DNA from: Naegleria gruberi
Lineage: Eukaryota
Reading direction: 5' to 3' (one strand)
Assembly (NCBI GenBank): GCA_000004985.1
Contig: GG738856.1
Length of the DNA stretch: 64,000 bases
The notes beneath the pieces are model-generated. The model saw nothing but the letters and a program-made list of their open reading frames with translations. It had not been told where the DNA came from and made no database searches. The position numbers and the translations under genes are program-made. Positions 8,802 to 57,222 of this stretch are shown piece by piece. Each line of letters opens with the position of its first letter. The first letter of the stretch is position 1.

Positions 8802-9008
8802 TTTTCTTTCTTTTATATTATTGAATTGTTATTATTTAATAATTCATTCTTTGATCAATTTGAAAGTTGTTATTAAAAGAGACGGAAATTCACAGTTAGC
8901 TAACTGGTGGCTGAACATGTTTTTCTTTTGTAAAATACATTGTCAATATACTATTGAACACTGGAACTCATTCACTTGTTTAAAAATAAACTAAAAAAAC
9001 GAGCAAAA

Positions 9009-24200: not shown

Positions 24201-27200
24201 GATGAACCAGACGACATTATTCAACAAACTATGAACAGAGGCAAGAATCTTATCAAGAGCCACGAATTTAAGAATTGTCTTTCATATACCAAAAAGGAAA
24301 AGGAATTGCTTTCTGTTATTGAAAAGGAATTTATGGAAGATTCCAAGAATGTTGTAGATAGACTTCCAGTTATTTATGAATTGGTTGGAAAGAACTTTGA
24401 AAACTTGATCATCAAGAGTGCTGTTCCAAAGGAATTTGATGCTGTAACAAGCAATATTGAAGATTTTAGTGTTGAAATTATTGAACAAACCCAACTTCTC
24501 AACAAGGAAAATTCTCCAAAGAGTATGAAATTGAGAGCTCTCGTTACTTTGTTGACAGAACTTAAGGAAATGGGCATTTCCTACTTGAAGAAGAGTGTTG
24601 GATCTGAAACTGCTATTGACAAGATTTTCCAAATTCCAGATGTTGGATTCTCATTGAATAACCTCACTTCAAATGATGTTCAAGAAGTTTTCAAGAAGGC
24701 TGATGACTATTACTTTAAGAACATTTTCAGTGTTCAAAACTTTAAACTCACCTTTGAAGGCGAAGTTTCTGGTGATATCAAGTCTCAACAAACCAAGATG
24801 AGAGGTTATCCAGACAATTTGTTCTTCCTCACAATGAAACACAGAAGAATCTTGGGTACTATTGAAGCAAGCCAAAAAGCTAATAAGTCTTTCCTTTCAA
24901 CCTTGAAACATTTGAAGCAAAGCTTTGAAAATGAAAAGGATGAAGGTGTTATCATTTCACAAAGCAAGGCTAGAGAATTGTTGAATGTACAATCAGGATA
25001 TGTCTTTAGACTCTATGAATTGGTTGCCCAAATCACTTCTCTATACACAGCTCTCTCAAAGCATGATAGTGCTTATGATAAACCTTTGAAGACTATTGAA
25101 GATGCCAAGAGTATCATTGATAGAAGCGTCGATCTTTTAGAAAGAATTATGAATAGAACTCAACTCTTCAGTACTAAGGATTTGAAGGAGCTTTCCGAAA
25201 ATCTCGAGACTTTGCAAAACGCTAGAGGTATTCTCAACAAGTTTGTTTCTGAAACCTCTGATCTTCCAAAATCAAAGGAATTGATTAGTCTTGTTGAAGA
25301 GTTTGATCAAGTCAAAACTACCTATGAATCAATTGTTGCAGAAGAAGCCAGTAATAACAAGTTTGATTTGGCTTCTATTTCATCATTTGCCAAGCTTTAC
25401 AAGCATGCTGTCAAGTCTATTCAATTGACTATCCAAGATTTGGTAAAGGCTTGCTCTGAAGAACAAGTTCAATATGAAGAAACTATGAAATCAGCCTCTG
25501 AAGAACTCAAGAATAGAAAGAAGGAAGATGATGAAGAAGATGACACTTACTCTGCTTCTTACTTGAGCAAGAATAACTCCATTCAAAGACTTGAAGAATT
25601 TATTGATAGATGTCATGGAGTTATCACTACTGGTTTGGCCAAGATTAACAAGGACATTTCTGGAATGATTGAATTCATCGTTGACAATAGTAAGAATTCT
25701 CAAAACATTACAAACAGTCTTACAGAATTGTTGAGTAACTTAGCTCCATTATTGCAAAGATTGGATGGTGTTGTTGATACCCTCAAGATTCCTCTTGTTT
25801 ATTATCACAAGAGTATTTCCAAACTCACTTATGTTCTCCTCAATATCTTCTCAACTTTGTGCAAGCAAGGTTTCTGTGGTAAGGATGACGAAGAACAAGG
25901 TGAAGGAGAAAGTGATGGTGTTGACTTTAGTTCTGGTACTGGTATGGACGATGGTGAAGGTATCAATGATATTGGTGATCAAATTGACAATGAAGATCAA
26001 TTATTGAACGAAAAGGATAAGCAACAACAAGAAGGTAATAAGGACCTTGAAAAGAACGATAATGCTATCGAAATGGACGGAGACTTTGAAGCTGAAAAGC
26101 AAGAAGTTGACGAACAAGAGGATGATGAGGAACAAGATCAAGATGAAGAACAAGATGAAAATAAGGAAATGGGTGAAATAGATGAAGATGATCCAAATAA
26201 GGAACAACTTGATGAAAAACTCTGGGACGAAAATGAAAATGACAGAGATGACAAGACTGAAGAAGGTTCCGATAAGAATGACAATCCTCAACAACAAGAT
26301 AGCGAACTTCAAGCGCAAGAAAATGAAAATGATGATCATCAACAAGATAATAGAAAGGACAAGCAAAAGAAGGATGACAAGCCAATGGAATACGAAGAAG
26401 ATGAAGAAGCTGTTGAACAAGAAGAATTCGAAGATAATATGGATGATAAATTCAATGATGAATTCCAAGACCAAGATAAGGATGGTGAAGATCAAGATGG
26501 AAAAGACAATGATCAACAAATGGATGATTTGGAAATTTCTGAAGATGAACAAGAAGGCGATGAAGAAAATCAAAATGAACAAGAAGGTGATGAAGAAAAC
26601 AAGGATGGTGAAGATAAGGAAGAAGGAGACAATGAAGATGCTGACGGTGATGAAGACTTGAAGAAGAAGAAGGATGAAGAAATTGATGAACAAGTTGACA
26701 CCGAAGATATCGCTCCAGAAGACCAAAATATTAGTGGACAAGATGAAGACAATCAAGATGCTATCGATCCAAACTTGGAATCTGAAAACAAACAAGAAAA
26801 GGACGAAGATGGCAATGATGACGAAGATGGTGAAAAGGAAAATGAACAAGAAGAGGAAGAAAAGGCCCATACTGCAGAGGAAGAAGCTGATTCTAAGGAT
26901 CTCAAAGAAACTCCATTTGGTGTTAAACAAACTGCTGGTAAAGCTTCTGATATTAAGGAAGATTCAGCTGAAAATGAACAAAGACAAGAAAAGAAGAATA
27001 ACAATGCTGAAGAAAGTGGTAAAGACACCAATAAGAATGAAATGGGTGAAAGTATGGATCAAGGTACTGATAATAATGCTGACCAAGAGCCAGAATCCGG
27101 CCAAATGCAAATGGATCCAAATCCTCTCAGAAGCTTGGGTGATGCCATGAAGAATTGGAAGAAGAAGCTCAACCTCGTCGAGAGAAACAAACAAGAAAAT

Positions 27201-28598
27201 GAAAAGAACAAGCAAGATGAAGGTGAAAAGAGCGAAGCTTTTGAGTTTGTTGAAGAAAATGATGCCGATAAGGACCAACAAGAAAATCAAATCTTGTCTA
27301 ATGCCACCGAAGAACAATCTAAGGAGTTCCCAGCAATGGAAGATGGCGAAGAGGATGATGAAGATGAAGAAATGACTGAAGAAAAGAAGAAGGATGAATT
27401 TGGTGAGGAAAAGAAGAAGGACGAAAAGGAAGGTAATAATGCCGACTCAAAGCCAAGTATTTCATCCAAGTTGGATAAGAAATTAGAACAAGACGAAGAC
27501 GAGGATGAAGATATGGAAGATATTCAATTTGAACCTTCAAATAAGAAGGTAGATTTTGTCCAAACCAACTTTGAAAGTACTATCCACACCAAGACTGAAG
27601 CTTTAGAAGAAGAAATTGAGACTGAAGAACCAGAAATTAAACCATTAAGTATGGATGACATTAAGATGATGAGAGAAGAGCTTGAATCATCTCTCAACGA
27701 ATGGAGAAATAATGAAGAAAATGTAAACAATAGTAAGGAAATTTGGAAGAAGTTTGATATTTTGACATCAAGCTTGTCTCAAGAATTGTGCGAACAATTA
27801 AGATTGATTCTTGAACCAACTTTGGCTACTAAACTCAAGGGTGACTACAAGACTGGTAAAAGAATTAACATGAAGAAGATTATTCCTTATATTGCCAGTC
27901 AATTTAGAAAGGATAAGATTTGGCTTAGAAGAACAAAACCAAATAAGAGAGATTACCAAATTCTTTTGGCTATCGATGATTCCAAGTCTATGAATGATAA
28001 CCATGCTGGTCAAATGGCTTGTGAAGCTTTAACATTGATTTCTAGAGCCATGTCACAACTTGAAGTAGGTCAATTAGGTGTTGTTAGCTTTGGTGAAAAG
28101 ATGAAATTGTTACATCCTTTCGAGAAACCATTCACTGATGAAACCGGTGCTGAAATCCTCTCTCAATTCACATTCAAACAAAATCAAACTCAAATTGTTA
28201 ACTTCCTGTCAGATACCATTCAACTTATGGAAAATTACAAGTCTATGGAATTCTCTAACAATAGCGAACAATATCAATTGGCATTTATTATTTCAGATGG
28301 TAGAATGTTAGAAAGAGATAGAATTGTTAAATTGGTCAGAGAAGGACAGGAAAAGAAGATTCTTTTCGTTTTCATTTTGATTGATAATCCAAATCCAAAG
28401 GATTCTATTCTCAATGTAAAGAGTATCAACTCTACTTCAGATCCAAAACAACCATTAACATTTAGTTATTATATTGAAAAGTTCCCATTCCCATTCTACA
28501 TAATTTTGAGAGACATTCAAACTTTACCTGAAGTCTTGGCCGATGCTCTTCGTCAATACTTTGAATTAATCAATCTCACTGCTAATGAACAAGTTTAA
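12249..28598 (+). CDS. MDN1: midasin (MDN1/Rea1), 5449 aa, single 16.35-kb exon
   Basis: Six AAA P-loops in order: GIIGSGKT (12948..12971), GETGVGKT (13965..13988), GPTSAGKT (15279..15302), GDTGTGKT (16152..16175), GSPGVGKT (17412..17435), GPSACGKT (18387..18410). About 560 aa of D/E-rich linker follow. The C-terminal VWA/MIDAS domain has LLAIDDSKSM (DxSxS at 27975..27989), and the tail EFPFPFYIILRDIQTLPEVLADALRQYFEL matches the conserved midasin C-terminus. A short upstream exon is possible (see findings). Confidence 0.95.
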   Translation: MDKLNNNNNTTDSNYDTINAITKILPLYPQFKTFIKQYFKDRPSLIESIVNNHQEDKIDQKQLITLLEITLRLLIFAPSDFCKMWNWSPFFSLLKHKNKDIKSLTSKCVSIILKLDDQFFNSKIDNLKTYVLEEIESEELVHLENTLSFYDDTETSNMETTTEETRDKLIISHKSDSMVNVCGVWLHKNLREIKSSQQNISADKTKLIFTKTSLENMRSLALGVAQENPIILEGIIGSGKTAYVEELARITGNTDLIKVNLDESFDSKDLLGTYVCTDVPGEFRWQPGALTKAVMEGRWILIEDLDLAPFDIISSIIPLVESGNLFLPSRDEIIPASTGFQLFATQSLVESLNGTTTRQRVLPMSNLWTKVRVNKLPSKEIEHILKVKFESIQQLIPKFIETYDALRSGHISDDSEKSEKQSSESTQLKSFGRLFSFRDLLKWCERVQRFYGQKIQKNQNYVLSQIKRDIFHEAIDVFCGMIAKHDIYDSVVGTLALVWEIYNYEEYLKTYKPQLHEEKGVITVGRISLERDEKNLGELLNKNSNFAHTKQSLRMMERVGACIKMNEPILLNGETGVGKTTAVQYLANLMGKKLLVHNLNQQTDSADFIGGYKPVDLKILAASVKSNFEQLFSVTFPSKENEVTLKKVRDLYTKKSWAQFIMMLNKIIDLADQKLSKVDEVVDEKLEEVDSKKRKKTQGSSSGTKKQKTSDKTSTLKQYWTKFKESVDKFNQQQILVQNSFAFSFVEGTLVKALKEGHWILLDEINLASTETLERLSSLLEGEEGTLFITEKGDTEPIKRHPNFRIFACMNPPTDIGKKNLPPGLRNRFSEFYVHELTDKDDLKIVVSRYLSTVPHPPVDDIVNFYLDVKKKSEAELSDGASQRPHYSLRTLTRSLDYAVFVMKDYGMERSLYEGFSMGFLTLLSSACSSTVEKMIRTCFFKQKNVDNSLKQAPSQPASGDFVLFKHFWLPQGQFAPEQPADFIITDTVEENLKNLARAIKTNKYPVLLQGPTSAGKTSMVQYLAKMTGHKFVRINNHESTDLQEYFGSYITNSQGKLVFQEGILVEAVRNGYWLVLDELNLAPSDILEALNRLLDDNRELFIPETQETVKPHPHFQLFATQNPPGLYGGRKVLSRAFRNRFLELHIDEIPRGELVTILHRRCQISNQHAEKLVSVMRELQQRRQSSKIFAGKSNITPRDLFRWAERMKGADEKINYNQNAAEEGFMLLAERLRRDEEKDIVKEILEKVFKTKLDLERMYNPKELDNLQVAGSTIVWTKTMKRMYVLVGKCLQFSEPALLVGDTGTGKTTVCQVYADIYEQHLRILNCHQHTETSDILGSLRPVRGREKLKIELEELIEEFITTANTKYSLDINFGNETSIGKKVKRLEDICKKLAKERKLAEPQKKKQKNEFKEKELLEKQLIIRDIYQKWKALFTWYDGPLVQSMKSGEIFLIDEISLAEDAVLERLNSVLEPSRELTLPERGSEKIESIVAHDKFRILATMNPGGDFGKRELSPALRNRFTEIYVPSLSVSEDLAIIVASKLDQSIKSFNTRMVEFVQFFKSKRTKRLLSVRDVISWVQFMNMAVAKLDMDAYGAFLHGVDTVILESIGVGTDSSAKNRLLLRKECFTFLLDKIAQENVLSTEQLEYYRDVFLNENYTAIRSNKTKESSEYFGYHPFYVKCGESSERKIVYALDAPTTGRNVMKVLRAMQLRKPLLLEGSPGVGKTSLISAIAKASGHNIVRINLSEQTDMMDLLGTDLPVEGSSGGQFRWCDGIFLRALRNGDWVLLDELNLASQSVLEGLNSVLDHRAEIYIPEINETVKCPEGFRIFACQNPLQQGGGRKGLPKSFLNRFTQVYVDELRPEDLTFILNSIHGDIGEENIKLMIDFNRKMHKETMELYRFGRKGSPWEFNLRDVFRWCELLKKERELNKDCTKPIDPMRMIDCMYKQRMRTVEDRKHVERVYKELTGKDFPCETNPTYTITPGAVQIGSSILLKNSSFDDSDKDNHAPSTSSQDLILLQSFLNPLENIMKCIEMNYLTIVNGPSACGKTSIVRLIAQMTGNMLSEFSMSSSTDTVELLGGFEQVDPIQKVRKIASFIKIKIDELARIAFLNDENLRFDALKLLYNQWTTYDATAKKDASFSGIEQLKSMCETLFDNLEYQSDEKQAIIQQLDNLSKLLEMGVKGRFEWNDGVLIRSLEAGNWILIDNVNFCNPTVLDRLNSLLEPEGVLVVNERGLVDGEIRIVKPHPHFRIFMVMDPKYGEISRAMRNRGIEISMFPITIPSQDAFTLLANNGVPSAHLCNVLMDYHAKFTQKIFLPEEDRPTIRDLLRCAEVFNSEVKQGLNITNAFKAAISCVYIRSRCSSKSAVDIAESELEECAKQLPRNDHGFPSTFVAANAFKCDKSLFRTVFRQSARLYDIIRNYLSLKVAESNDHNDSTKKLLDSLKWKILVTDLPPHFLQTNDVEKTIISADVMDTSSTSNLINDMQYALEYFIDVSSFKDIDIRVIWLQRLLTLCKSDKILEELLTKGIELLNTRKGCEVSKKIQKIFKNMQQTVTQRFSEIIASQPMNLKYSEQLFARLQYLGLINEQDNYVFDAATILTSQQKRKYEEQQSIAVEFQGTIVENKSSLLHQSYYYHLNPKHRSTAPNRVVVHLYTLFVQIDELVDAIMNSKVDESVCSLDDISGMLRCRDKLWFYLSHTAELSEEFFIYWNWLAKEFLKVKVKKPATSGKKKNISETPYGLYEQLCTFMGEIDGLVISNFNSVGKKNTLYKNCGKPTISLSVELKEIEDTITNYLSVNTSSNTESKELKQLVYNAMSTVKLLQQEPNHPDQEKLLQYVRTVPELLEKAKPKEQEISEDVYTPYKELATKSEQELVMDKIFRDIAEFTAPDKKHINAASLHSTQAISPLFDYKSMHHEMNVVTLLSKIGYILKRLDASSDVKEIKRLLSTAVAKGRHLIDFILQNCSRGPLDLVPYQLLLWRISNLETNSADEIKKIALGIPSLLHFVWIYWNERVWENTYNTSMFENSDSTETPVSRDDLAGPNRLFQDVNSVHILKLLSGWENIPIRSRHIKIDQLKKVVQFICTNVDNVQSEEVDWNNLVYLYCDTLLSFKKSFPEASFQLLLDITDSLCATKQASVQDLTKIIESSNDGRLKAKKNDIISVCNLICTRDEDKNKDLMNRGLAWLKLGETRMNLFIPANSLDPTLKYAIYDKHLKEDIQVLQGKLEIMTSIERFISGSGRNIISDKIEKDITNIQSIVDKITPKVINRPTNISFIDMYREMKSLADQHEVIKNLSNSLIKFFESDNDDKQDMVAELINKEESYQANSHSHIKSKILKNSFGFEDLALPFASSAYHIKYGLRLLCYGSLAKKDESEQNTVNQILNHLLSFPSCNSVQTIEDDLAIVQQWLKSIENSANTQSKCKQYETATKVLRVLMSRCLLITVSQTSSQDNTIHNLQLLNQVFVMYSNLFESVEDELEKKKAEEDNFYKYKERKTTIETEEEILEEEMETMFPTYSEDYSQFNAPTEEKNIMNLSEKKESLISEKSLLERVNKVIHDEREIDYLVRTHKDIFSFISSSSQLRPVDTIDTIRNKMFDESFNVAVHIINTLNGKYQIDMTSSGYLPLVLFGSRALNNLWVKVDNSKEAKLKAYSEVYTEPNIPEITLAFSTLFSMLQRLNFLIKKYSTEEQKGHPILVEMVKIIEHILNQPITSPIIKILTGLELVLIKAGEWEEYLTAHVNSLKDEIRKLSGLIIRWRRMELENWKGIYDLKNREYKNKSINWWFRFYNMICNSSFKMEELTKIIEDFFGICDDFIRTSTIGDFEYRLGLLNNFYQHLAAEIERKYSDDVEVRTKIRDIIFNLHKYYSQFSGKLEERLDQEKQPLETKLRDFITLTKWEDVNIDAIRFTTKKSRRALAKFSKGFGEVLVKPARDLWDKYDELAAASEIIQESEKKPKRKSKNKKIKKRKNKKFIADEPDDIIQQTMNRGKNLIKSHEFKNCLSYTKKEKELLSVIEKEFMEDSKNVVDRLPVIYELVGKNFENLIIKSAVPKEFDAVTSNIEDFSVEIIEQTQLLNKENSPKSMKLRALVTLLTELKEMGISYLKKSVGSETAIDKIFQIPDVGFSLNNLTSNDVQEVFKKADDYYFKNIFSVQNFKLTFEGEVSGDIKSQQTKMRGYPDNLFFLTMKHRRILGTIEASQKANKSFLSTLKHLKQSFENEKDEGVIISQSKARELLNVQSGYVFRLYELVAQITSLYTALSKHDSAYDKPLKTIEDAKSIIDRSVDLLERIMNRTQLFSTKDLKELSENLETLQNARGILNKFVSETSDLPKSKELISLVEEFDQVKTTYESIVAEEASNNKFDLASISSFAKLYKHAVKSIQLTIQDLVKACSEEQVQYEETMKSASEELKNRKKEDDEEDDTYSASYLSKNNSIQRLEEFIDRCHGVITTGLAKINKDISGMIEFIVDNSKNSQNITNSLTELLSNLAPLLQRLDGVVDTLKIPLVYYHKSISKLTYVLLNIFSTLCKQGFCGKDDEEQGEGESDGVDFSSGTGMDDGEGINDIGDQIDNEDQLLNEKDKQQQEGNKDLEKNDNAIEMDGDFEAEKQEVDEQEDDEEQDQDEEQDENKEMGEIDEDDPNKEQLDEKLWDENENDRDDKTEEGSDKNDNPQQQDSELQAQENENDDHQQDNRKDKQKKDDKPMEYEEDEEAVEQEEFEDNMDDKFNDEFQDQDKDGEDQDGKDNDQQMDDLEISEDEQEGDEENQNEQEGDEENKDGEDKEEGDNEDADGDEDLKKKKDEEIDEQVDTEDIAPEDQNISGQDEDNQDAIDPNLESENKQEKDEDGNDDEDGEKENEQEEEEKAHTAEEEADSKDLKETPFGVKQTAGKASDIKEDSAENEQRQEKKNNNAEESGKDTNKNEMGESMDQGTDNNADQEPESGQMQMDPNPLRSLGDAMKNWKKKLNLVERNKQENEKNKQDEGEKSEAFEFVEENDADKDQQENQILSNATEEQSKEFPAMEDGEEDDEDEEMTEEKKKDEFGEEKKKDEKEGNNADSKPSISSKLDKKLEQDEDEDEDMEDIQFEPSNKKVDFVQTNFESTIHTKTEALEEEIETEEPEIKPLSMDDIKMMREELESSLNEWRNNEENVNNSKEIWKKFDILTSSLSQELCEQLRLILEPTLATKLKGDYKTGKRINMKKIIPYIASQFRKDKIWLRRTKPNKRDYQILLAIDDSKSMNDNHAGQMACEALTLISRAMSQLEVGQLGVVSFGEKMKLLHPFEKPFTDETGAEILSQFTFKQNQTQIVNFLSDTIQLMENYKSMEFSNNSEQYQLAFIISDGRMLERDRIVKLVREGQEKKILFVFILIDNPNPKDSILNVKSINSTSDPKQPLTFSYYIEKFPFPFYIILRDIQTLPEVLADALRQYFELINLTANEQV
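25870..27540 (+). repeat. low-complexity D/E/K-rich linker inside the midasin CDS
   Basis: GAA/GAT/AAG-dominated sequence. It generates the long F/I/L-rich and S-rich antisense ORFs in the six-frame track (for example 26001..26930 minus). Confidence 0.9.
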
Positions 28599-30739: not shown

Positions 30740-31867
30740 TTATTTATTCAAATACTTAACTTCCTGAGTCAATTTACAAGTGTAATGATGAGCAGATTGA
30801 TAAGACTCATATTTAGTCCACCCACTCAATTTAAACTTGTAATATCCAACATCTATCACACCCGTGTAATTACATCCGTAAACACTTGAGGTTTCTGCCA
30901 AAATCTGAATCCCATAATTGCCATATTTGCTGTTTGATCCTACCAGTCCAATTAAAGAGCTATCTGTTGCTATCGTATGGTTATTGTAATACCACCTACA
31001 GCGATATCTATCGGATAAGGTATCAGCTCTAAAGAATATTCCAAATCCAACCCTTCTAACACTTTTATCCGAATTTGTTGAGTTTCCAGATTTAAGATTT
31101 TCAAAATGTTTGGCCAAATCTGAAGGCATGCACAGTTTGTAAATATGTTTCAAATTCTTTGGAATAACTCCACAACTCTCTGCAAAATGGCTCACATCAA
31201 ATATAAAGGCATGTTCACTATTATCCATTTTTCCAATTACAATATATCTATCAAGTGATTCCTTTTCCTCATTGAAATAATTAGTTTTCAGCTTGAAGTA
31301 AACTTGATGATTATCATGATCGATAATCGTTATAAGAGAATTGATAATTTCCTCTTCATTCTTCAATGCATAATTTGTGAATTTGCTCAGCTCTGAAATT
31401 GAATTACTATAATTGAAACAAATCTCAATTCTTAAAGTATCAATAGGCATGCATTTCTCTGGAAACAATACCTTGTCCTTCTCGACAGAACAAGGTCTTG
31501 CTACTTGACCAACCACCAATGGTTGCGAATCTTGACACGTGAAGGTCACATTAAACATGGCATTTTCTCCTGTATTAATTTCCTTGCACATATCCATCAC
31601 ATTCTTTACTCGATCATAAATATCACTTGATCTAGTAGGCATTCCAATGTTTTCTCGTGAATTTTTCTTTTTAAATTGCATGGTAGGAATGTCAAGTTTC
31701 AATTTAATTAAATCTTTCAACATGGATGTGAATGATTCCGAATGTTGATATGAATTTTCCACTTTTCTTGATGATGGTCTTGNNNNNNNNNNNNNNNNNN
31801 NNNNNNNNNNNNNNNNNNNNNNNNNNNNNNNNTTGGATGATACTTTGGAGTTAAATAGAACTCTCAT
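30740..31867 (-). CDS. hypothetical protein (contains an assembly gap; N-terminus uncertain)
   Basis: A 375-codon ORF spans the 50-N gap at 31783..31832. No recognisable motif. Confidence 0.4.
   Translation of the reverse strand: MRVLFNSKVSSXXXXXXXXXXXXXXXXXXRPSSRKVENSYQHSESFTSMLKDLIKLKLDIPTMQFKKKNSRENIGMPTRSSDIYDRVKNVMDMCKEINTGENAMFNVTFTCQDSQPLVVGQVARPCSVEKDKVLFPEKCMPIDTLRIEICFNYSNSISELSKFTNYALKNEEEIINSLITIIDHDNHQVYFKLKTNYFNEEKESLDRYIVIGKMDNSEHAFIFDVSHFAESCGVIPKNLKHIYKLCMPSDLAKHFENLKSGNSTNSDKSVRRVGFGIFFRADTLSDRYRCRWYYNNHTIATDSSLIGLVGSNSKYGNYGIQILAETSSVYGCNYTGVIDVGYYKFKLSGWTKYESYQSAHHYTCKLTQEVKYLNK
31783..31832. other. assembly gap (50 N) plus a single n at 31891
   Basis: A 50-N run is the usual placeholder for a gap of unknown size. 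Confidence 0.95.
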
Positions 31868-32164: not shown

Positions 32165-35100
32165 TCATATCCAACTTTCATTAAGAGAATATCTTCCAAG
32201 AGTTGAATAATTATCAGATATTGAATCAGTAATAGTTGATGATGTGAATTTAGATGTATCAAAAGGTCCAAGCGTATCACTGTAGCTTGATGTAGAGCTG
32301 TTCAAATAGTCATCACTATCCTCATATCTCTTCTGAACATACGAGAATCCATTACTTGAATCTGATGTGTAAAAAGTGGACATGCTTTGTTCAGATGATA
32401 GAAAGCTATCTTCGCTATCTGTTCCATCTGAAGACATGGACATTTTAAATGAAACCACTTTGCCAGTTATTGACCTTTTTAGCATTTCAAGTTTCAACAT
32501 TTTTTCAATGTCGTTTTCATTAAGTGTTGCAAACACTTTATCTCTCTTCAATTCAACATAATCATACTTTTGTTCAGGTTGAACTGGTTCGTAAATAATC
32601 TCTTCCTCTTCATAGAAGGATGATTGAGAATCTGAATATGTAACAGCTTCTGATGAAGAATAGTTAGAATTGGTCAAAGTAGATTTCTTAGGATTGGTAG
32701 TAGAAGTAGTGGTTGTAAAACTAGTTTGAATATTCTGTGATTGGGTTTGCTTTGGTAATTGTGGAGCAATATGAAAGAAACTGGAAGGATTATACTGTAC
32801 AAATAAATTCTTTGAATTTGTTTCGGTTGTTGTTGAAATGGTTATTGGTGGTGGTTCAGTTTGTACACCAGAAATGGATTTAGTAAATTCATTTGTTTGA
32901 ACTGAGCTAGATTCTACTTTTGGAATTTCATTGAAAGTTTGTGTTGTAATGTTATATTGTTGAGCTTTTGTCTCTGTTGTTATTGAAATTGGAGTTATAG
33001 CCTCTGACATATTATCAGAGAGAATAAAGAACGTGGAATGGGGTAATCCCAGTTTTGGTTGAAAATCTTCAATGATAGGAGTTGTGGGTATTTTATCCAA
33101 ATGCTCCTCCTCTGTTTGTGTTTCAGTGGTTCCAAGTGAAGTAATTTTAGCAGTTTCCACAATTTTCAATTCCTTTTCCTTTGGTAAAATAATTTCCTTG
33201 TCTTTGGAAATATTGGCTTTGTGAGGAATAAACTCAATTTCTTTACATCCGTCATCAATAATTCTGTTTTTCACTAATGATCGATCATTCAATAAGAGTC
33301 TAAACACAAGTTCATAAATTTTCTCCAAATCAAATTCATCATAATCAATCTCAGTAAGTTCACGCACTGAATTGTGTAAGTCAAATATTGGTTGCTTTGA
33401 TTTGATATATTCAATTAAAAGGTCCTCTGTTATATTGTATATAATTTCATCATCACAGGATAAATCATTATTATAGCAAAATGAAAATAGTTCTGCACAC
33501 AATGCCCCTCCTTTAATGGACATAAACCTTTCATCATTTGTTACATGTAAATCTTCTCCTGAATCTTGTTGGCCTAATGAACTGTTCAAATAATCTCCAA
33601 TAATGTTCATGGAAATATGCTTAATTACTCTTTCTATCAAACAATTAGCATATTCTTCAAAGATTAAATCCATATTCTTTTGCTTTTTAACATAATTTGA
33701 CAAATAATGTTGACTTTTTTCATCTGTTTTGATTAATCTGTTAGAATAATGAGATGTAAAACAAATACCATCAAAATCTTCGCACTCATTAAGTTTTGGA
33801 ATTTGATGAGAAGATTTCTTTGGAAGCATTTCTCTAATTAATCTTTCCTTTTCAAACCTAGATAGTTCTTTTTCAACTTTCACATCAATACCATTTTGAA
33901 AGGACATTGCTGAACTGTCCTTTGTTGTCCAGCTCGCATTGTAACTTTCAATCTTTTCCTCCAATGAAATTTGAGCGTTGGAAGGTGGTACACTTATTGT
34001 GGAATTATCAGTAGAAGGTAATTCCGTTTGTATTTCAACCTCGTGAAGAGAAACATCTTTAGGAACTTCCGTTTGAACAGATTGGGCCTCCATTTTTGGC
34101 GTAGGTGCTGTAGGCTCAGCGGTTTGCTCATGAATTCTTGTTTCTGGTGTCATCTCCTTTAAGTTTTGGGGTTTTACAGTCTTTTTGTTCATTACTGAGA
34201 ATTTTAGTAAACTCTCAGAAAATCCTGGATACAACTTTAAAATTTCTTTGCTTGATAGATCAGTTTTTGATAGCACAATTGGTTTTGGTGGAAGGTTTTC
34301 AATTTTAACCTTTTCATCTATTGAAATTGAAAATTTTGGTTGCTCAATTAAAACAGTGTCGAGATTCAAGTTCTTCGAGAAATCTATAGATTTTCCAACT
34401 AGTTCATCAATTAAATATTTTTGCTCGTTTTGGTAAAAGTCTAAATTATCCATTGGCGAGCTATCATCCCACTTTTTAAAAATCATATATCAAAATTCAA
34501 ATAAATACTTACAGATGGATATTTGAAAATGGATGGATGTTTTTTTGACACTTCATTATGGATATCATCTATTGTTAGCTCAGCTGTTTTGGAATCTAAA
34601 TCAAACAAGGGTCTTCTTGTTTGTCTGTGGGTTCTCGAAGTACCTGTAAAAACCTTAAAATCCCTTTTAGAGTCATTTTTAAGTTGTGAAGTCTTCTTTT
34701 CAATCATTTCAAGCTTTTTACCTAGATCTTCAATTTGTTTCATTTGCTTGGACATGAGCGTTTGAGATTTCTTTTGATCTTCACTTAACTGTTTCCCAAA
34801 TCTAGAAGTAATATCCGATGTGACCTTCTGCAATTTGTCAAATTGTTTGTAAAATGTTTTTAAATCTAATCCCATCCGTGTCATTGAATTGTTTACAGTG
34901 TTAGTGACTTGACTAGCAGTTTTTACAAGAATATTGTCATACTCCTTTTCTTTTTGTTGTAACAGTTTTTCCAACATTTTTTGGAATGAGGAGAGTTTCA
35001 ACTCACTCTCCTTAACTGCATTTTCAATTTCATTTCTGAATGAAGAAATTCGTTCAATATTTTTTTCAGTAATTCTATTCTCTTTATCGAGTGGTCTATT

Positions 35101-43251: not shown

Positions 43252-44572
43252 TCAGTTGTGGAAAGAAGAGTAACATTCAATTGTTGTTGCGAGTTGCTCT
43301 CTGGCTTCGTAGAACCCATCTTCTTCAAAACCACCATCTCCCACAATCCAGTGAACGAAAGCTCTCTTACTATACATCAAATCAAATTGTTTCAGAAGGT
43401 TTTCAAGATAGCTTGTGATAGAGGTAGTATTGTTGGCAATGTGCATTACATTTGAAAAGTTGAAAGACTCTGGGTAGACATTCTCTGGCCCCTTGTTTGA
43501 TATTTGATATTGGGCTTTTTCTGTCTCATTTGAAAATTTCCAATCAGTTTTGAGTTTTTCTGAAAGTAAGCTTGTGTGATTCTTTGAAAAATCGCCTCTC
43601 ATTGCTATATTCATTGCTATGGTAACACCATTATTGGCCATATTCATTGAGGTATTTCTTGAAAAGATATCCTTTATGCTCAATTCAGTCATGGATGTAT
43701 CTTGCAAGTTTACAAAACTATTGCATATTATGTTGGCATTATATGAAATAGGAAGAGTTTCACACACATCACGTAAACTTCCTTCATTTGAATCTAATCT
43801 GAGATGTTAATGTTGAAATGTTTTGTGAAATCAGATGGTTCATTTCCTTAAAGTTTGGATTCTTTATACCACTCTCCACGCACGCATTTGATAGAGCATA
43901 ATTATCATACGAAAATATAGATTGTACATTATCATGAATATAATGCAAGGCAATAACTGCATTGTATGGCTCCAATATTGATGTAGAATAGGTTTCCGTT
44001 GGAAAAATTGAAAAGCATGACTTGATCATAGTGTCAACAATATCGTGCCCATATTTACTTACCATTGGAAGTTGAAATTCATGGGCCAAATCATAGATAA
44101 GAGAAGAGGTCGATCCAGATCCAGTTCCTCCACCAAGAGAATGAGTAACCAGTACAGTCCCCATCGAATCACAATTTTCCACCATTTTCCTCACTCTCTC
44201 CTTAACATAGTCCCACATTTCTCCACTCATGATGTGATATCCTTTTCCAAAATTTGATGAAGCATCATAATCTGCATAATCAATAGGGGAAACTATATTT
44301 TCTTCCTTAAATTGAGATTGAGATCTTGATGATGCCTTGGTCAGTCTCTGTATTTGTGAGTCTGTATCAAAGAATAAACATCGAGCATGATAAACATTCT
44401 CCATTCTGATAGACTCATCATATAAACATGATAGATTATTAATGCTATTGTTTTGTTGGCCAGGGTCAAGGGAACAAGAAGGTAATTTGTGTTCTTTGGC
44501 AAATAAATTCCAAAGATCAATTCCGATCTCACACCCACAATTGCCAAAATGAAGAAAGATCAATTCTTTCAT
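43252..44572 (-). CDS. divergent tubulin-superfamily protein, frame interrupted by an apparent 1-nt indel near 43787-43789
   Basis: N-terminus MKELIFLHFGNCGCEIGIDLWNLFAKEH is tubulin-like. Signature VTHSLGGGTGSGSTSSLIYDL. C-terminus ...QFDLMYSKRAFVHWIVGDGGFEEDGFYEAREQ. Far more divergent than alpha, beta or gamma tubulins (possibly a delta/epsilon/zeta-type). The two track ORFs 43784..44572 and 43252..43767 join as ...TSQIRF|(N)EGSLRDVCETLP (compare tubulin SLRFDGALNVDL) only if one nucleotide in the run ttcaaatg is skipped. Confidence 0.65.
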
Positions 44573-44632: not shown

Positions 44633-46444
44633 TTACTTTTTTTGTGTTCTAAACAACTCTCTGTACGATAAAATCTTTTTCTTTGAGAAATTTCTAATGC
44701 CAAAACTCTTCTTGATGAGTTGACGACAATCAAACATCTTTTGTGAACTATCTTTGAGAAGCATAAAAGCTGCTTGGAAGTCATTACACTTCATTAGTTC
44801 CTTTTCGAGCAGTGTAAGATAGGTCATACCAATACGATATAAAATCTTGTACTTTTCATGAATAAAGCAATCCCAAATTCTCAATGCCGTTTCTACTGGG
44901 AATGATGTCAAATAGAGGCAGAGGAACCAATTTGGAGAAACCATAATAAATAAATTAGACTCCAGTTTCACCAGATGGTTTGTTACCTTGGGTATTCTAT
45001 CTAAACAAAGATGTTGCAAAACAAATGATTCAGAATAAACACCTTCCATACTTGAATCATACAAATCTGGTGGCATGTAACGATCTATAATTCTATCAAG
45101 TGTGAAAAATGCTTGTTGCACATTCATTCCTACCACTAACATTATACCAGCCAGGAAGTTCATTGATTGACAATATCCAACCTTTGGATTATGTAATGAG
45201 TACAAATAGAGAACATTTCTCAAAGCAATTTGATTGTGTGGATCTTTAAAGAATGGATGAGTTGGGAATGTTCTATCAACATCCTTACAAATGCAAACGA
45301 AATTCTTATCCTTTTCTCTTTCATCAATAGGAATAGCGAGTGCCTTTTCTTTCAAGTTATCAAAAATATCTTTGTGTGTTAAATATTGATAGTTTGCTCC
45401 ACTAAATAATTAATATCCACTACTACTGATCATCAATAACACACTTACCTAATAATATACCACATTACTGCTCTGTATTCCATAGGAATTCCCTTTCTTA
45501 CTAATTTTTTAAAATCATTGGATTCTTCAATAAAGTGGAAAATACGTTGTTGTTCATATTCCTCTAAGGTTGTAAATCCCTTAGCTCCGATATTGTGCTT
45601 TTGAATAAATTCTTGCCATCTCTTTCTTTGACTTTCAATTTTCTTTGCATTAAAATCCTTATGTTTTTCAAATAATTCCTTCATATCTCTGACATTTCCA
45701 TCATCATCAGAGAGATCAAATCCATAATTTTCAAGATACTTTTTACTAACATCAACAGGTTTTGCTTCCATAATTTCCAAATCTAATGTTTTTGTAGCAA
45801 TACCAATTGTTCCTGAAGAATCTTTACGAACAAAATCAACCTGTTCAACATCAACTTGTATCTGAGCAACAGCAACAGCAGAAGTAACACCTACATTACC
45901 AGCAGCAACACCATCACCTACAGAAGAAGAAGAAGTCGATGGTGCATTGTTTGTTGTTTCATCCATTTTTTCAAGGCTTTTTTCGTTCTTTCCGTTGCTA
46001 CTGTTGATGTTATTAGCTGTTGATGAACTATGATTGTTATTGTCCTTGTTGGTATCATCCTCTTCATCATCATCAGAGGAGGAGGAGGACATGAGATGGA
46101 ATGGATCATCGTCCTCTTCATCCAATTTAAAGGTTCCATCAATGATATTTTGTTTGTACTTTTCAAAATCCTTGTCGGTGATGAGATTTTGTTTGTGATA
46201 GTTGGAGAGGAGATCTAATTGTTCCTTTTGCTCTTTGGATAGTCCTATTGTTGTTATTGTTATTGTTGTTATTTGTTGATGTTATGATTGTTATTGTTGT
46301 TCATCAATGTTGAAATGAAAAAATTGGTTAATAATTGTTGTTGATTGGTGACTTACCAAAGTGCTCTACTGGGTTGGGCTAGGTAACAATGTTAGTTGTG
46401 ATGATTTTTCTCATGTAATCACTTACCACGTCAGATGAAATCAT
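44633..46444 (-). CDS. TBC-domain Rab GTPase-activating protein, 4 exons
   Basis: Exons 46444..46427, 46378..46357, 46244..45449 and 45401..44633. Introns 46379..46426, 46245..46356 and 45402..45448 are all GTAAGT..AG. The two 5' micro-exons are inferred only from canonical splice signals plus frame. TBC motifs: RKGIPMEYRAVMWYII|SGA (RxxxW), IPIDEREKDKNFVCICKDVDRTFP (IxxDxxR arginine finger) and VGYCQSMNFLAG (YxQ glutamine finger). The track ORF 45445..46125 begins at a TTG. Confidence 0.7.
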
Positions 46445-49613: not shown

Positions 49614-51911
49614 TTAATTTAATTGGAAACTTCTGCTCAATATTTCTTCTTCTCGCAAGTGTTGTTTGAATTCCGCCAGCTTGTTTCTCAAACTTTTGAT
49701 GGCTTGAATCTTTCTAACCAAAATACAATCTAAGCTTGTTACATATTTGTCTATTGTTGATTGAGGTTGATCAACATCGTTCAGTAATTCCATTTCTTGT
49801 TTCATTAATTCCATAATGTCATCAATATGTTCTCTGTGTTGGGCAATAACCTCTTCTTCCTCGTCTAAAATCTTACTGATTAGTTCTTCGTGAGCTCTCT
49901 CAAGTTCTGCCTCTCCTACATCTTGGAAGTGAGGAGGTAAAACAACTTCATTATTTTCTTGCATAATATCGGCATCATCAAAATCTTCATCATCTAAATC
50001 TTCGTCCACAATGTTATCAGAAGTCTCATAGTCTTGTTTATCATAATCCTTAATATCATATTCTTGCTTATCATAGTCATCCATTTGCATATCATCATCT
50101 TCAACTTGATAATTATCAACTTGATAGTTATTATTCACTCTCATTTGGTTATTGATATTTTGATTAATGTTCATATTTTCGAACACTGGTTGTTGGGGTT
50201 GAGGAGTAGGAGTGAGATCTTGCCTTGGTTTAGCGGCAGCTTTACCATTTCCACTTCTGAGTTCTTTAACTCTGTCAGCATATCTCAATGTATTCAAACT
50301 GTGTTCGCACGAATTAGAAGATGGTGAGGCATTAGCAATCATTACAGTCTTGGAGTTTCCTATAAAAGAATCTTTCAATACTTCTGTCAGTTTGCTTCCT
50401 CTGAATGGAACGTGACTCTTACCACGATCCAAAGATCTAATACATTCCTTAAGTGCCAACAAACTCTTATTGATATCAGCACCTTCCAACCTTGTTTGCT
50501 TGTCACTGTTCTTTGTATCAGCACCTCGTTCAGAACCAGCAAGATCTATGAATGAGAATTTACCATATGGCTTATCATTGTACTTTAAAACAATTTGTAA
50601 TATAGCATGGGAACGTGAGGAGTCAGAGTTAGCACCAGTTGAACCAGTAGCTCTGATGGAAAGACCTGTATCTATCATACCCATCAAATCTTCTACACTA
50701 TTTACACTATTTTCTGTCAATCCGCAAATACTGACCATATTCTTAGCATCTTCACGAGCAAATACCTTCTTTCTATTATTCAACAAATCAAATAATTTAC
50801 CACCATAAATTTCATAAAAACTGATCCAAACACTCAATTCTGACGAGAGTCTTTGAAAAATGTCACTAGCAGCAAGTAAATATAAACCCTTTTGTCCATT
50901 TTTACCCATCATGGTAAATGTTTTACCACTTCCTGTTTGTCCATAAGCGAAACAAGTGGCTTTACCCTTATTGAAAATGTGATCAACAAGTGGTCTAGCA
51001 GTCTTATTATAAATTTCAACGTTATCACAATATTCATCAAATATTTCATCAAAACAGAATTGATGTTTTTCTACAAATTTTGTAAGATCGACTTTTTGTT
51101 TAGGTTCGTGTATAATTAACTCGTTATCATTTACAACTTCCAAAATATCAGTTTCACCTCTATTCTTTTCGTTATCATTAAGAGGTCTTTTACGAACAGC
51201 AACTACAATATTTGATCTTTGTCTTTTGCCAGCTGCTGGTGGTTGAGCTTGTTGCTTATTAATGATATTATTATTATTGATAATGTTATTGTTGTTGCTA
51301 ACAACATTAACCATTGGTTTACGAGGTTGTTCTTGTACAACAGGAGTTGATTTCACTGGATTCCTTACTACTTTTGGTTGAGCATTATTTTGTTGCATAA
51401 TTTGTTGGAGTGATTGTACTTTTGGAGCTTGGAATTGAGGTTGAGAAGATGCTGGTCTCTTATTGACCACATTATTATTGTTAACTTGATGGACTTCAAA
51501 GGCATCGAAATTGGTATCGTTATTGTTACCCATATTATTCACGGCAGCATCCCAATCATAGAGTGATTCTTCGGCATTGCCATAATTTTCTTTCTCATCA
51601 TCAACAAATGCCTGTGCTTTAGGATTCAAATCTAAAGCAGGACATCTATTGAGTGCCATTTGTTCATTCTCAAAATTTCCACCTGATGATGAAGATGATA
51701 TATTTTTCTTGGCCACTTGTATTAGTTCAAAGAATTTTCTTCTATCTCCTCCGTTGGATACACCAATTTTATTGGCGACATCTTGTACTGATAGCTGTGC
51801 AATAGCTTCAATACTGGTTACTCCGTTTAATTTTAATTGAGAGTAGTAATGATCGAGTGAAGCCTTCTCGAGATATTTAAACAATACAGAAGAGGCGCTC
51901 TCTGAAGGCAT
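49614..51911 (-). CDS. kinesin-13 with an N-terminal SAM domain (KIF24-like)
   Basis: The central motor has the kinesin-13 KVD loop ([24 protein letters not shown]) and the P-loop [21 protein letters not shown] and [11 protein letters not shown] are present, and the motor is internal, which is typical of kinesin-13. The N-terminal 70 aa ([56 protein letters not shown]) fit a SAM domain, as in centriolar KIF24 (from memory). Confidence 0.8.
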
Positions 51912-56314: not shown

Positions 56315-57222
56315 TTAATCAAAAATTTTTGGGTTTTGCAATCTTTTTTTGAGTTGAGGATTTCTTTCAACTAGAGCGCCTAATTTGAAAACCTCTTTTT
56401 GAGCTAGGCTTTGTCCACTTTGATAGAATTCGTCTGGACTGACATGGTTGTGCACAAACCTTCTTTTCTTGTAGCAGTCAATGGATGCCACAGGTGTATT
56501 ACACAATAAACATTTCAGTTCCTTGTCTTGATCGTAAGCCTGATGAGAATACCTCTCAAAACATTCGTGACACATTGCCAAATGCCTTCTCAATGGTGAA
56601 TCATTTGAATTTTTTGAAAAACAACTTACCTGCAAGGATTGAAAATAATATCAGCATCGTCACTAAAGCAAATGCAACAACTTTTCCCATTAGTTATCAC
56701 ATCTGGTTGTTTGTCATTGGAATGATTCGATCCGATCACCATTGAAAGAGTGCTTAAGAACTCATTCACCTTTTTTCGAATAAAACTCAGTTGAGTTTTG
56801 TTATACCTATCCGATAATTGTTTCGGATTATAGTCCAACAATTGGAAATCATTTACATGAATCATATGGATTGATTCTCTCGCACCATTGATATATCCAT
56901 CCTGATAAATTACTTTACTCTTTAAATAATCCTTGTAATAAAACAACAATCTCCGAATCAAAGCACAAACTAAGTATAATACAAAAAATCCCTGATCTCG
57001 CTTATAATAATTTACAATATAATAACAAATGAAAAATCCATCACTCTCGTATAATATTAATCCCCACCACAATAATCTACAAATTATAAAAGGAATACTC
57101 AGAATTTGAAAAAATTCAGGAGTTTTCCCAACAATAAACAATGGAATGAAAGGATGTATCAGTGCCAAATATCCATACGTTTCATAATCGTCTAAGTAAT
57201 TCCCATCTCCAAGTGTAAACAT
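56315..57222 (-). CDS. multi-pass transmembrane RING (C3HC4) E3 ubiquitin ligase, 2 exons
   Basis: Exons 57222..56630 and 56588..56315; intron 56589..56629 (GTAAGT..GAG, 41 nt). The join is in frame: ...CCICFSDDADIIFNPC|RRHLAMCHECFERYSHQAYDQDKELKCLLCNTPV, giving C-x2-C...C-x2-H-x3-C-x2-C...C-x2-C. The N-terminal half has several hydrophobic segments. Confidence 0.65.

What the first reader, a model, noticed from the sequence alone, without database searches (positions are those of the whole stretch)
43252..44572. Highly divergent tubulin-superfamily gene with a single-nucleotide frameshift
The gene carries the tubulin signature GGGTGSG, the N-terminal GxCGxxIG...EH and the C-terminal FDLMYSKRAFVHW, but is otherwise far more diverged than alpha, beta or gamma tubulin. 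That makes it a candidate delta/epsilon/zeta-type centriolar tubulin. The reading frame breaks in the run ttcaaatg (43787-43789) exactly where the conserved SLRF(D/N)G(A/S)L block continues in the +1 frame. No intron can explain the break, so it is either a homopolymer assembly error or a recent pseudogenisation.
Basis: seen in the sequence. Interest (0 to 1): 0.5.

Follow-up and report, generated by a model that had tools for sequence, protein, structure and literature searches.

The report
Known Naegleria alpha-like tubulin, frame-broken
This is a catalogued, fast-evolving alpha-tubulin-like gene of the amoeba Naegleria gruberi, not a centriolar delta/epsilon/zeta tubulin, and its single reading-frame break is too recent to tell a draft-assembly error from a very young mutation.

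Summary
On the minus strand, 44572..43252 encodes a full-length tubulin with GGGTGSG, and the frame breaks at TTC-AAA-TGA (43792..43784).

The window is Naegleria gruberi. The gene is public as XP_002679827.1/EFC47083.1, named "LOW QUALITY PROTEIN: alpha-tubulin". That model restores the frame by skipping 7 nt (AAATGAA).

The delta/epsilon/zeta idea is not supported.
- phmmer bit scores: alpha 157-171, beta 115, gamma 79, epsilon 65-75, delta 54-55.
- Neighbour-joining groups it with alpha in 295 of 300 bootstraps.
- The literature already lists it among the "bonus" divergent alpha-tubulins of N. gruberi.

Its closest relative is a 63-66% identical N. gruberi paralogue, which reads AGATTCTCAAATG where this gene reads AGATTC--AAATG. 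The simplest lesion is therefore a 2-nt loss (TCTC to TC), not a homopolymer insertion.

No intron can repair the break. Both halves show purifying selection (dN/dS 0.42 upstream, 0.33 downstream), so the break has essentially no evolutionary age.

I lean slightly to an assembly or consensus error (about 0.5) over a very young real lesion (about 0.4). A second intron-less frame break sits in an SRR1-domain gene in the same window.

I also found a probable 42-nt in-frame intron (44062..44021) that the public model translates. Interest is low.

The parts
44063..44572 (-). Exon 1 of the divergent alpha-like tubulin gene. It runs from the ATG at 44572 and includes the T1 loop (GNCG) and the GGGTGSG T4 loop at 44134..44114.
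   Evidence: ORF list and translation. Pfam PF00091, E = 3e-32. 100% match to XP_002679827.1.
44021..44062 (-). Probable 42-nt intron (GTAAGT...ATCAAG). It is in frame and has no stop codon, so ORF finders and the public model translate it as VSKYGHDIVDTMIK.
   Evidence: The paralogue has a 47-nt GTAGGT...TTTCGAG segment with stop codons at the same place. Removing both gives colinear LPM|SCFSIFP and LPM|STFTVFP, matching alpha-tubulin's ..EFSIYP... Identity to the paralogue is 26/47 here, against 47/60 and 45/60 in the flanking exons. Introns of 41-44 nt with GTAAGT donors occur elsewhere in the window. The translated insert has pLDDT below 50 in the AF2 model. This is an inference; there are no transcript data.
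43790..44020 (-). Exon 2, part read in frame 1, up to ...TSQIRF (TTC at 43792..43790).
   Evidence: It aligns with alpha-tubulin helix H7 and the start of the T7 loop.
43784..43792 (-). Frame-break site TTC AAA TGA. Frame 1 hits TGA at 43786..43784 and the coding sequence continues in the +1 frame. The paralogue has TTC TCA AAT GAA here.
   Evidence: The public model skips AAATGAA (43789..43783) to read IRF|GSL.
43252..43789 (-). Exon 2, part read in the +1 frame: (S)NEGSLRD...FDLMYSKRAFVHW...ECYSSFHN, with the TGA stop at 43254..43252. There is no acidic C-terminal tail.
   Evidence: dN/dS is 0.33 against the paralogue and differences are enriched at third codon positions.

Best explanation
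The locus is the Naegleria gruberi gene already deposited as XP_002679827.1 / EFC47083.1 / D2V7X5. It is one of the lineage-specific, fast-evolving alpha-tubulin-derived paralogues, the 'bonus' alpha-tubulins of the literature.

Probable true structure: exon 1 (44572..44063), a 42-nt intron (44062..44021), and exon 2 (44020..43252). This would encode a tubulin of about 426 aa.

What the protein keeps: most of the GTP pocket, namely GGGTGSG and the residues aligned with alpha-tubulin D69, E183, N206 and N228.

What it has lost, compared with a canonical alpha-tubulin:
- the T7 loop
- the M-loop
- the K40 loop
- the acidic tail

It is therefore unlikely to be an ordinary lattice subunit. More probably it is an accessory or regulatory tubulin. 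That functional reading is inference.

The frame break at TTC-AAA-TGA corresponds to a net loss of 2 nt (TCTC to TC) relative to the sister paralogue, and it has no detectable evolutionary age. My preferred reading is that the gene is intact in the organism and the break is an indel or consensus error of the draft Sanger scaffold. The database model papers over it with a 7-nt pseudo-intron.
For: Identity of the gene:
- 100% match to 'alpha-tubulin [Naegleria gruberi]', which RefSeq names 'LOW QUALITY PROTEIN'.

Alpha affiliation:
- PDB best hits are all alpha.
- The named full-length hits checked from an exhaustive HMMER search of 1.84 billion representatives are alpha; one partial local match was a beta-4B-like fragment.
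- phmmer scores are alpha 157-171 bits against 115 or less for the other families.
- NJ groups it with alpha in 295/300 bootstraps.
- The published ML tree appears to place it (inferred from the CDS length of 1314 nt) in an N. gruberi-only clade in the alpha orthogroup.
- The tubulin fold is confirmed: AF2 pTM 0.81 and Foldseek TM 0.81-0.85.

Age of the break:
- It is the only disabling lesion.
- All other indels against the paralogue are multiples of 3.
- dN/dS is 0.42 upstream and 0.33 downstream, both significantly below 1 (p = 8e-6 and 2e-7).
- Differences downstream are biased to the third codon position (40/32/64).

Artefact leaning:
- The scaffold is draft quality, with N runs at 1-3600, at 31783-31832 and at 31891.
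- A second intron-less frame break splits one SRR1 domain (Pfam profile positions 15-49 and 56-171 in different frames) at about 8332..8301 in the same 64 kb.
Against: - A 2-nt loss in a TCTC microrepeat is what replication slippage produces. It is less typical of Sanger base-calling errors, which are mostly single-base.
- The gene belongs to a redundant, rapidly evolving family with at least five related N. gruberi genes. Gene death is common in such families.
- N. gruberi NEG-M is, as I recall from the genome paper (not checked here), heterozygous. A real null allele on one haplotype could have been assembled.
- No reads, ESTs or second assembly could be consulted. No copy of this gene from another strain was found.
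- The SRR1 break used to calibrate the local error rate is itself unverified.
Confidence: 0.5

Rival explanations
1. The break is real. It would be a very young frameshift mutation, either a null allele on one haplotype or a nascent pseudogene, in a dispensable member of a redundant divergent-tubulin family. The predicted product is a 262-aa truncated N-terminal GTPase domain, or no stable protein.
For: - The lesion maps to a TCTC to TC dinucleotide contraction relative to the paralogue, a typical slippage mutation.
- The family is fast-evolving (dN/dS 0.33-0.42, against near zero expected for canonical tubulins) and multi-copy.
- The literature doubts that these 'bonus' tubulins assemble into microtubules (PMC9081340).
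Against: - There is only one lesion.
- The downstream half is at least as constrained as the upstream half, so the mutation would have to be extremely recent.
- A second frame break in a conserved SRR1-domain gene nearby suggests the scaffold carries indel errors.
Confidence: 0.41
2. Programmed +1 ribosomal frameshifting at AAA-UGA-A. Lys-tRNA in the P site would slip from AAA to AAU while the UGA stop waits in the A site, as at Euplotes AAA-UAA/UAG sites or the antizyme UCC-UGA site. The product would be a full-length protein reading ...IRFK-EGSLR...
For: The sequence at the break is a slippery AAA codon followed directly by a stop codon, and the +1 frame continues the homology immediately. 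The resemblance to known +1 sites is recalled from memory, not tested.
Against: - The sister paralogue is simply in frame at this point, reading TTC TCA AAT GAA. The site is not conserved.
- There is no stable downstream RNA structure (z = -1.13).
- The other frame break in the window (SRR1 gene) does not lie at a stop codon.
- I know of no reported +1 frameshifting in Heterolobosea.
Confidence: 0.03
3. The gene is a delta-, epsilon- or zeta-type centriolar tubulin.
For: The overall divergence is about 30% identity to any canonical tubulin. The local motif RF..EGSL superficially resembles epsilon's RFEGSLN.
Against: - Epsilon scores 65-75 bits and delta 54-55 bits, against alpha 157-171.
- There was 0/300 bootstrap support for grouping with delta or with epsilon.
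- The epsilon and delta family-specific insertions are absent.
- N. gruberi is reported to have its own conserved delta and epsilon genes.
- Zeta was not tested directly, but no named non-alpha full-length sequence outranked alpha among the top hits I checked in the exhaustive search.
Confidence: 0.02
4. A cryptic or non-canonical intron restores the frame.
For: Short introns of 41-44 nt exist in this genome. The public model does use a 7-nt gap.
Against: - All 58 frame-restoring GT..AG candidates of 20-400 nt remove at least 25 residues of sequence. That sequence is colinear with alpha-tubulin and nearly identical at nucleotide level to the paralogue.
- The 7-nt gap AAATGAA has no splice signals and is far below any intron size seen here.
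Confidence: 0.01

Closest known systems
N. gruberi 'bonus' highly divergent alpha-tubulins (Fritz-Laylin et al. 2010 inventory as summarised in Fulton 2022, PMC9081340; tree in Velle et al. 2022, PMC9036621 Data S3)
   Same: It is one of them. The deposited protein XP_002679827.1 is identical apart from the patched junction. It sits in an N. gruberi-only clade with JGI 72133 (XP_002672810.1, 63-66% identical), XP_002672843.1, XP_002678438.1 and JGI 71268. It has no E-hook, as noted for Naegleria alpha-tubulins in PMC4202323.
   Different: Nothing categorical. The papers I searched or read do not mention the frame break, the 2-nt interpretation, or the probable 42-nt intron.
Canonical alpha-tubulin (for example PDB 6e88_A, 1JFF chain A)
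   Same: It is colinear over the full length (E about 1e-43). The GGGTGSG motif, the residues aligned with D69, E183, N206 and N228, and the alpha-type H11-H12 block FDLMY.KRAFVHW.VG.G.EE..F.EARE.LA are kept. It has the same fold.
   Different: - Identity is only 29-31%.
- Pfam Tubulin_C (PF03953) is not detected.
- T1 reads GNCG, not GQAG.
- The T7 loop reads SNEGSLRDVCE, not DGALNVDLTEF. Spacing is altered and the catalytic Glu254 is not clearly placed.
- The M-loop and the H1-S2 (K40) loop are unrecognisable.
- There is no acidic tail.
Naegleria mitotic alpha-tubulins (JGI 55745, 58607)
   Same: They are also divergent, lineage-restricted alpha-tubulin paralogues of the same organism (PMC9036621).
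   Different: [quoted passage not shown] This gene is about 30% identical to alpha. No homologue was found outside the N. gruberi complex, and no expression data were found.
Euplotes AAA-UAA/UAG and antizyme UCC-UGA +1 programmed frameshift sites
   Same: A shift-prone codon is followed immediately by a stop, with the downstream open reading frame in +1.
   Different: The site is not conserved in the paralogue and has no stimulatory structure. There is no precedent in this lineage that I know of.

Membership tests
Tubulin/FtsZ superfamily | GTPase domain (Pfam PF00091) with the G-box GGGTGSG | tested here: met
   PF00091 E = 3.2e-32, 112.8 bits against a cutoff of 33. GGGTGSG lies at 44134..44114.
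Tubulin/FtsZ superfamily | Two-domain tubulin fold | tested here: met
   AF2 model pTM 0.81. Foldseek top PDB hits are all tubulin chains, TM 0.81-0.85, E about 1e-31.
Alpha-tubulin | Closer to alpha than to beta, gamma, delta or epsilon in sequence and in a tree | tested here: met
   phmmer bits: alpha 157-171, beta 115, gamma 79, epsilon 65-75, delta 54-55. NJ bootstrap with alpha is 295/300. Caveats: one beta, one gamma, vertebrate-only delta and epsilon, and NJ only.
Alpha-tubulin | Alpha-type C-terminal helices ([38 protein letters not shown]) | tested here: met
   FDLMYSKRAFVHWIVGDGGFEEDGFYEAREQLATTIECY aligns without gaps apart from one extra residue (GDGG for GEG).
Alpha-tubulin | Canonical T7 loop GxxNxDxxE with catalytic Glu254 | tested here: not met
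   It reads RFSNEGSLRDVCETL against RFDGALNVDLTEFQTNL. There are two extra residues before the Gly, Asn249 is replaced by Arg, and the spacing to Asp/Glu is altered. Residue numbering is from my own knowledge of alpha-tubulin.
Alpha-tubulin | Acidic C-terminal tail (E-hook) and the K40 loop | tested here: not met
   The protein ends ...ECYSSFHN directly after H12. The H1-S2 loop is unalignable and has no K40 equivalent. [quoted passage not shown]
Alpha-tubulin | Pfam Tubulin_C (PF03953) intermediate/C-terminal domain signature | tested here: not met
   It is not reported at E <= 0.01 for the repaired protein, although every canonical alpha hit carries it. The region still aligns with alpha in phmmer.
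Epsilon-tubulin | Epsilon-specific insertion of about 26-30 residues before H8, an RFEGSLN T7 loop, and a KKKAHLHHY C-terminal block | tested here: not met
   The insertion is absent and the C-terminal block is alpha-type. Scores are 65-75 bits. Bootstrap support is 0/300.
Delta-tubulin | Delta-specific insertions and sequence affinity | tested here: not met
   The insertions are absent. Scores are 54-55 bits. Bootstrap support is 0/300.
Zeta-tubulin | Grouping with zeta/eta tubulins | not tested
   No zeta reference sequences were available. Indirectly, the named full-length top hits I checked in an exhaustive search of all family representatives are alpha.
Programmed +1 frameshift site | Shift-prone P-site codon followed by a stop or slow codon, with the ORF continuing in +1 | tested here: met
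   AAA-TGA-A at 43789..43783, with the +1 frame open from 43806.
Programmed +1 frameshift site | Conservation of the shift site in homologues and/or a stimulatory RNA element | tested here: not met
   The paralogue is in frame (TTCTCAAATGAA). The 94 nt downstream fold with z = -1.13.
Old (decayed) pseudogene | Multiple disabling lesions and relaxed constraint (dN/dS near 1) beyond the first lesion | tested here: not met
   There is a single lesion. Downstream dN/dS is 0.33 (p = 2e-7 against neutrality) and all other indels are multiples of 3.

The most novel reading that the evidence does not exclude
The break is genuine and is decoded by +1 ribosomal frameshifting at AAA-UGA. That would make this a Euplotes-like shift site in a heterolobosean tubulin gene, and the first such case outside ciliates, yeast elements and antizyme. 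A milder variant: the N. gruberi-specific clade of E-hook-less, T7-altered alpha-like tubulins has a non-lattice function that has not yet been described.
Probability: 0.03. Interest if true: 0.7.

Novelty: already known. Interest (0 to 1): 0.18.

Why it matters
The main value is annotation hygiene for a model organism used to test the multi-tubulin hypothesis. The public protein for this 'bonus' alpha-tubulin is a patched model: it skips 7 nt at a frame break and probably translates a 42-nt intron. The sister gene's model probably splices out a conserved beta-strand. Anyone counting or modelling Naegleria tubulins should know that this member may be a null allele or may carry an assembly error. 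Its affinities are with alpha, not with the centriolar delta, epsilon or zeta module. Nothing here opens a long-standing question.

Tried and rejected
- Exact-product look-ups of the public model and of the 262-aa N-terminal ORF in assembled public runs found nothing. No independent assembly could be compared.
- A homologue search with the divergent middle and C-terminal part found only the paralogue cluster.
- Two scans of JGI metagenome contigs, one with peptide patterns and one with a 25-nt DNA pattern around the junction, found no relatives.
- Accession searches in the paper library found no paper naming this protein. The supplement of Findeisen et al. 2014 is not held.
- PDB holds no epsilon-tubulin.
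- Synteny between the two paralogues was rejected. The flanking gene on the paralogue contig has no match in the window.
- A first NJ/bootstrap script timed out and was rewritten.
- Intron rescue of the frame was rejected.
- A stimulatory RNA structure was rejected.

Full report
**1. The observation**

The gene lies on the minus strand. An ORF starts at the ATG at 44572 and runs in one frame to a TGA at 43786..43784, ending ...NISTLTSQIRFK*. The +1 frame is open from 43806. It reads ...SNEGSLRDVCETLPISYN... through FDLMYSKRAFVHW to a TGA at 43254..43252.

Joined across the break, the protein matches Pfam Tubulin (PF00091, E = 3e-32). It aligns over its whole length with solved alpha-tubulins (best E = 8.5e-44; the 60 best PDB sequences are all alpha). 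The described feature is therefore real, at the stated coordinates, and far beyond chance.

**2. Source and prior knowledge**

A protein search returned a 100% identical, 437-aa entry, 'alpha-tubulin [Naegleria gruberi]'. Its accessions are EFC47083.1, XP_002679827.1 and UniProt D2V7X5. RefSeq labels it 'LOW QUALITY PROTEIN'. The deposited model reads ...TSQIRF|GSLRDV..., so it simply omits the 7 nt AAATGAA (43789..43783).

[quoted passage not shown] These include seven highly divergent 'bonus' alpha-tubulins judged unlikely to assemble into microtubules. It also has single conserved gamma, delta and epsilon genes (PMC9081340; PMC9036621).

In the published ML tree (Velle et al. 2022, Data S3) one entry is 'Ngru_Contig_6773_length_1314, OG5_126605 alpha'. 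A length of 1314 nt equals 437 codons plus a stop, so I infer that this entry is the gene. It is sister to JGI 72133, inside an N. gruberi-only clade with XP_002672843.1, XP_002678438.1 and JGI 71268. Findeisen et al. 2014 assign Naegleria's divergent tubulins to alpha or beta and note E-hook-less alpha-tubulins in Naegleria.

**3. Which tubulin family**

An exhaustive HMMER search of 1.84 billion cluster representatives gave, after the gene itself, a 66%-identical fragment (P0121). That fragment clusters with the N. gruberi protein XP_002672810.1. Next came sequences of 30-37% identity. The named full-length ones I checked are alpha-tubulins. The one exception, P0123, is a beta-4B-like fragment that matches only locally.

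I took a beta sequence from a PDB alignment and a gamma sequence verified as identical to PDB 7qj0_U.

| Comparison | Identity of repaired protein | phmmer bits |
|---|---|---|
| Paralogue XP_002672810.1 | 63% | 511 |
| XP_002672843.1 | 33% | 154 |
| Alpha | 29-31% | 157-171 |
| Beta | 26% | 115 |
| Gamma | 21% | 79 |
| Epsilon | 21-23% | 65-75 |
| Delta | 18-19% | 54-55 |

The epsilon- and delta-specific insertions are absent. In a neighbour-joining analysis of 422 columns the gene and its paralogue grouped with alpha, to the exclusion of beta, gamma, delta and epsilon, in 295 of 300 bootstraps. They never grouped with delta or epsilon.

Limits of this test: NJ only, one beta, one gamma, vertebrate-only delta and epsilon, and no zeta.

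An AlphaFold2 model (pTM 0.81) matches tubulin chains with TM 0.81-0.85.

The delta/epsilon/zeta suggestion is therefore not supported. This is an alpha-derived, lineage-specific paralogue.

**4. Nature of the break**

The paralogue is available as DNA on an ENA metagenome contig (L001; over 90% identical in protein to XP_002672810.1).

The two genes are 73% identical over 1145 nt. Around the break they are identical for about 48 nt except for two bases:
- This gene: ...CATCTCAGATTAGAT--TCAAATGAAGGAAGTTTA...
- Paralogue: ...CATCTCAGATTAGATTCTCAAATGAAGGAAGTTTA...

The paralogue reads IRF-SNEGSL in frame. The simplest description of the lesion is loss of one TC from TCTC. It is not an extra A in the AAA run. 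The two-event alternative, a codon deletion plus a 1-nt insertion, cannot be excluded.

All 58 GT..AG introns of 20-400 nt that would restore the frame remove at least 25 residues of sequence that is colinear with alpha-tubulin.

**5. Age of the break**

It is the only disabling lesion. Every other indel against the paralogue is a multiple of three.

| Segment | Codons | dN/dS (Nei-Gojobori) | dS | Fisher p vs neutrality |
|---|---|---|---|---|
| Upstream of break | 205 | 0.42 | 0.62 | 8e-6 |
| Downstream of break | 173 | 0.33 | 0.74 | 2e-7 |

Downstream differences fall 40/32/64 on codon positions 1/2/3. The part of the gene that would be untranslated if the break were old is at least as constrained as the part before it. 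The break is therefore evolutionarily instantaneous. It is either not real or very young.

**6. Error or mutation**

I could not reach reads or a second assembly.

Points for an artefact:
- The scaffold is a draft, with N runs at 1-3600, 31783-31832 and 31891.
- The same 64 kb holds a second intron-less frame break. One SRR1 domain is split between two frames, with Pfam profile positions 15-49 in ORF 8801..8298 and 56-171 in ORF 8305..7769.
- In that gene the switch is confined to about 8332..8301. The only GT..AG candidate would delete residues that align to the profile.
- Two such breaks in about 60 kb of coding sequence are easier to explain by consensus indel errors than by two independent recent gene deaths.

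Points for a real lesion:
- A dinucleotide contraction is a classic slippage mutation and is less typical of Sanger miscalls.
- The family is redundant and fast-evolving.
- A null allele on one haplotype could have been assembled.

My estimates are about 0.5 for an artefact, about 0.4 for a young real lesion, and a few per cent for anything else.

**7. Programmed frameshifting**

AAA followed by UGA, with the ORF continuing in +1, resembles known +1 sites (recalled from memory). Three things speak against it. The site is not conserved in the paralogue. The downstream 94 nt fold no better than shuffles (z = -1.13). The SRR1 break is not at a stop codon. I keep it as the most novel reading not excluded, at about 3%.

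**8. A probable unannotated intron**

At 44062..44021 the sequence GTAAGT...ATCAAG (42 nt) is in frame and free of stops. It is translated in the public model as VSKYGHDIVDTMIK, a 13-14-residue insertion relative to alpha-tubulin.

The paralogue has a 47-nt GTAGGT...TTTCGAG segment containing stop codons at the same position. Removing both gives LPM|SCFSIFPTETYSTS and LPM|STFTVFPGATYSTS, colinear with alpha-tubulin ..LEFSIYPAPQVSTA.

Three further observations fit an intron:
- Identity between the paralogues is 26/47 in this segment, against 47/60 and 45/60 in the flanks.
- Introns of 41-44 nt with GTAAGT donors occur at 34512..34472 and 56629..56589 (or ..56586) in the window.
- The translated insert has pLDDT below 50.

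The true product is then probably about 426 aa. By the same argument, the deposited model of the paralogue (LPMV|GATYSTS) probably uses a wrong acceptor and deletes a conserved strand. All of this is inference without transcript data.

**9. How it probably works**

This part is inference from alignment A2, with residue roles taken from my own knowledge of alpha/beta-tubulin structure.

The nucleotide pocket is largely kept: GGGTGSG, and the residues aligned with D69, E183, N206 and N228. Three changes stand out: Q11 to N, N101 to S and E71 to D.

The following are altered or absent:
- the T7 loop, which in alpha-tubulin activates GTP hydrolysis in the neighbouring beta subunit
- the M-loop, which makes lateral contacts
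- the H1-S2 loop
- the acidic tail

Such a protein may still bind GTP and perhaps a partner tubulin. It is unlikely to be a normal lattice subunit or a platform for motors and tail modifications. No expression or localisation data for it were found.

**10. Verdict**

The family assignment is wrong. The gene and its defect are already in the databases, and the cause of the break remains open between artefact and very young lesion. Novelty: already known. Interest is low.

Noticed in passing
window 8828..7769 (minus), switch region about 8332..8301: There is a second frame break without room for an intron. One SRR1 domain (Pfam PF07985) is split between two reading frames, with profile positions 15-49 in ORF 8801..8298 and 56-171 in ORF 8305..7769. 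The only GT..AG candidate (8372..8324) would delete residues that align to the profile.
   Followed up: partly
window 34512..34472 and 56629..56589 (or ..56586), minus strand: Two short introns of 41-44 nt have GTAAGT donors. The first joins ORFs 35985-34483 and 34489-32165. The second splits a RING finger (CCICF...NPC | HLAMCHEC, Pfam zf-C3HC4_3). They show the local intron size class.
   Followed up: partly
L001 431..477 (ENA metagenome contig ERZ929261 k127_75665), paralogue of the gene: A soil or water metagenome contig carries a near-identical copy (over 90% in protein) of the N. gruberi paralogue XP_002672810.1. With a 47-nt intron removed it reads LPM|STFTVFPGATYSTS. The deposited 422-aa model reads LPMV|GATYSTS and so probably uses a wrong acceptor, losing a conserved beta-strand.
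   Followed up: partly
window 49614..51911 (minus): A kinesin motor protein with an N-terminal SAM domain (Pfam Kinesin E = 3e-99, SAM_2 E = 8e-7) lies about 5 kb from the tubulin gene. No functional link was examined.
   Followed up: no
window 12249..28598 (plus): A single 5449-codon ORF encodes a midasin (MDN1/Rea1) homologue, with six AAA_5 modules, midasin AAA lid domains and a C-terminal VWA. The stretch 26001-28000 has strongly skewed composition (GC skew 0.30, AT skew 0.39), probably the acidic D/E-rich linker.
   Followed up: partly
window 46125..44633 (minus): Immediately upstream of the tubulin gene lies a TBC/RabGAP gene in two ORFs (46125..45445 and 45355..44633) separated by about 89 nt, presumably an intron.
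   Followed up: no
window 1..3600, 31783..31832, 31891: Runs of N (a 3.6-kb scaffold gap, a 50-N gap and a single N) mark this as a draft scaffold.
   Followed up: yes
window 43830..43760 compared with L001 680..735: The two paralogues are 73% identical overall but share several perfectly identical blocks of 26-48 nt, including synonymous sites. Examples are the block around the frame break and AATAGTTTTGTAAACTTGCAAGATACATCCA. This could reflect patchy gene conversion or nucleotide-level constraint. It was not analysed.
   Followed up: no
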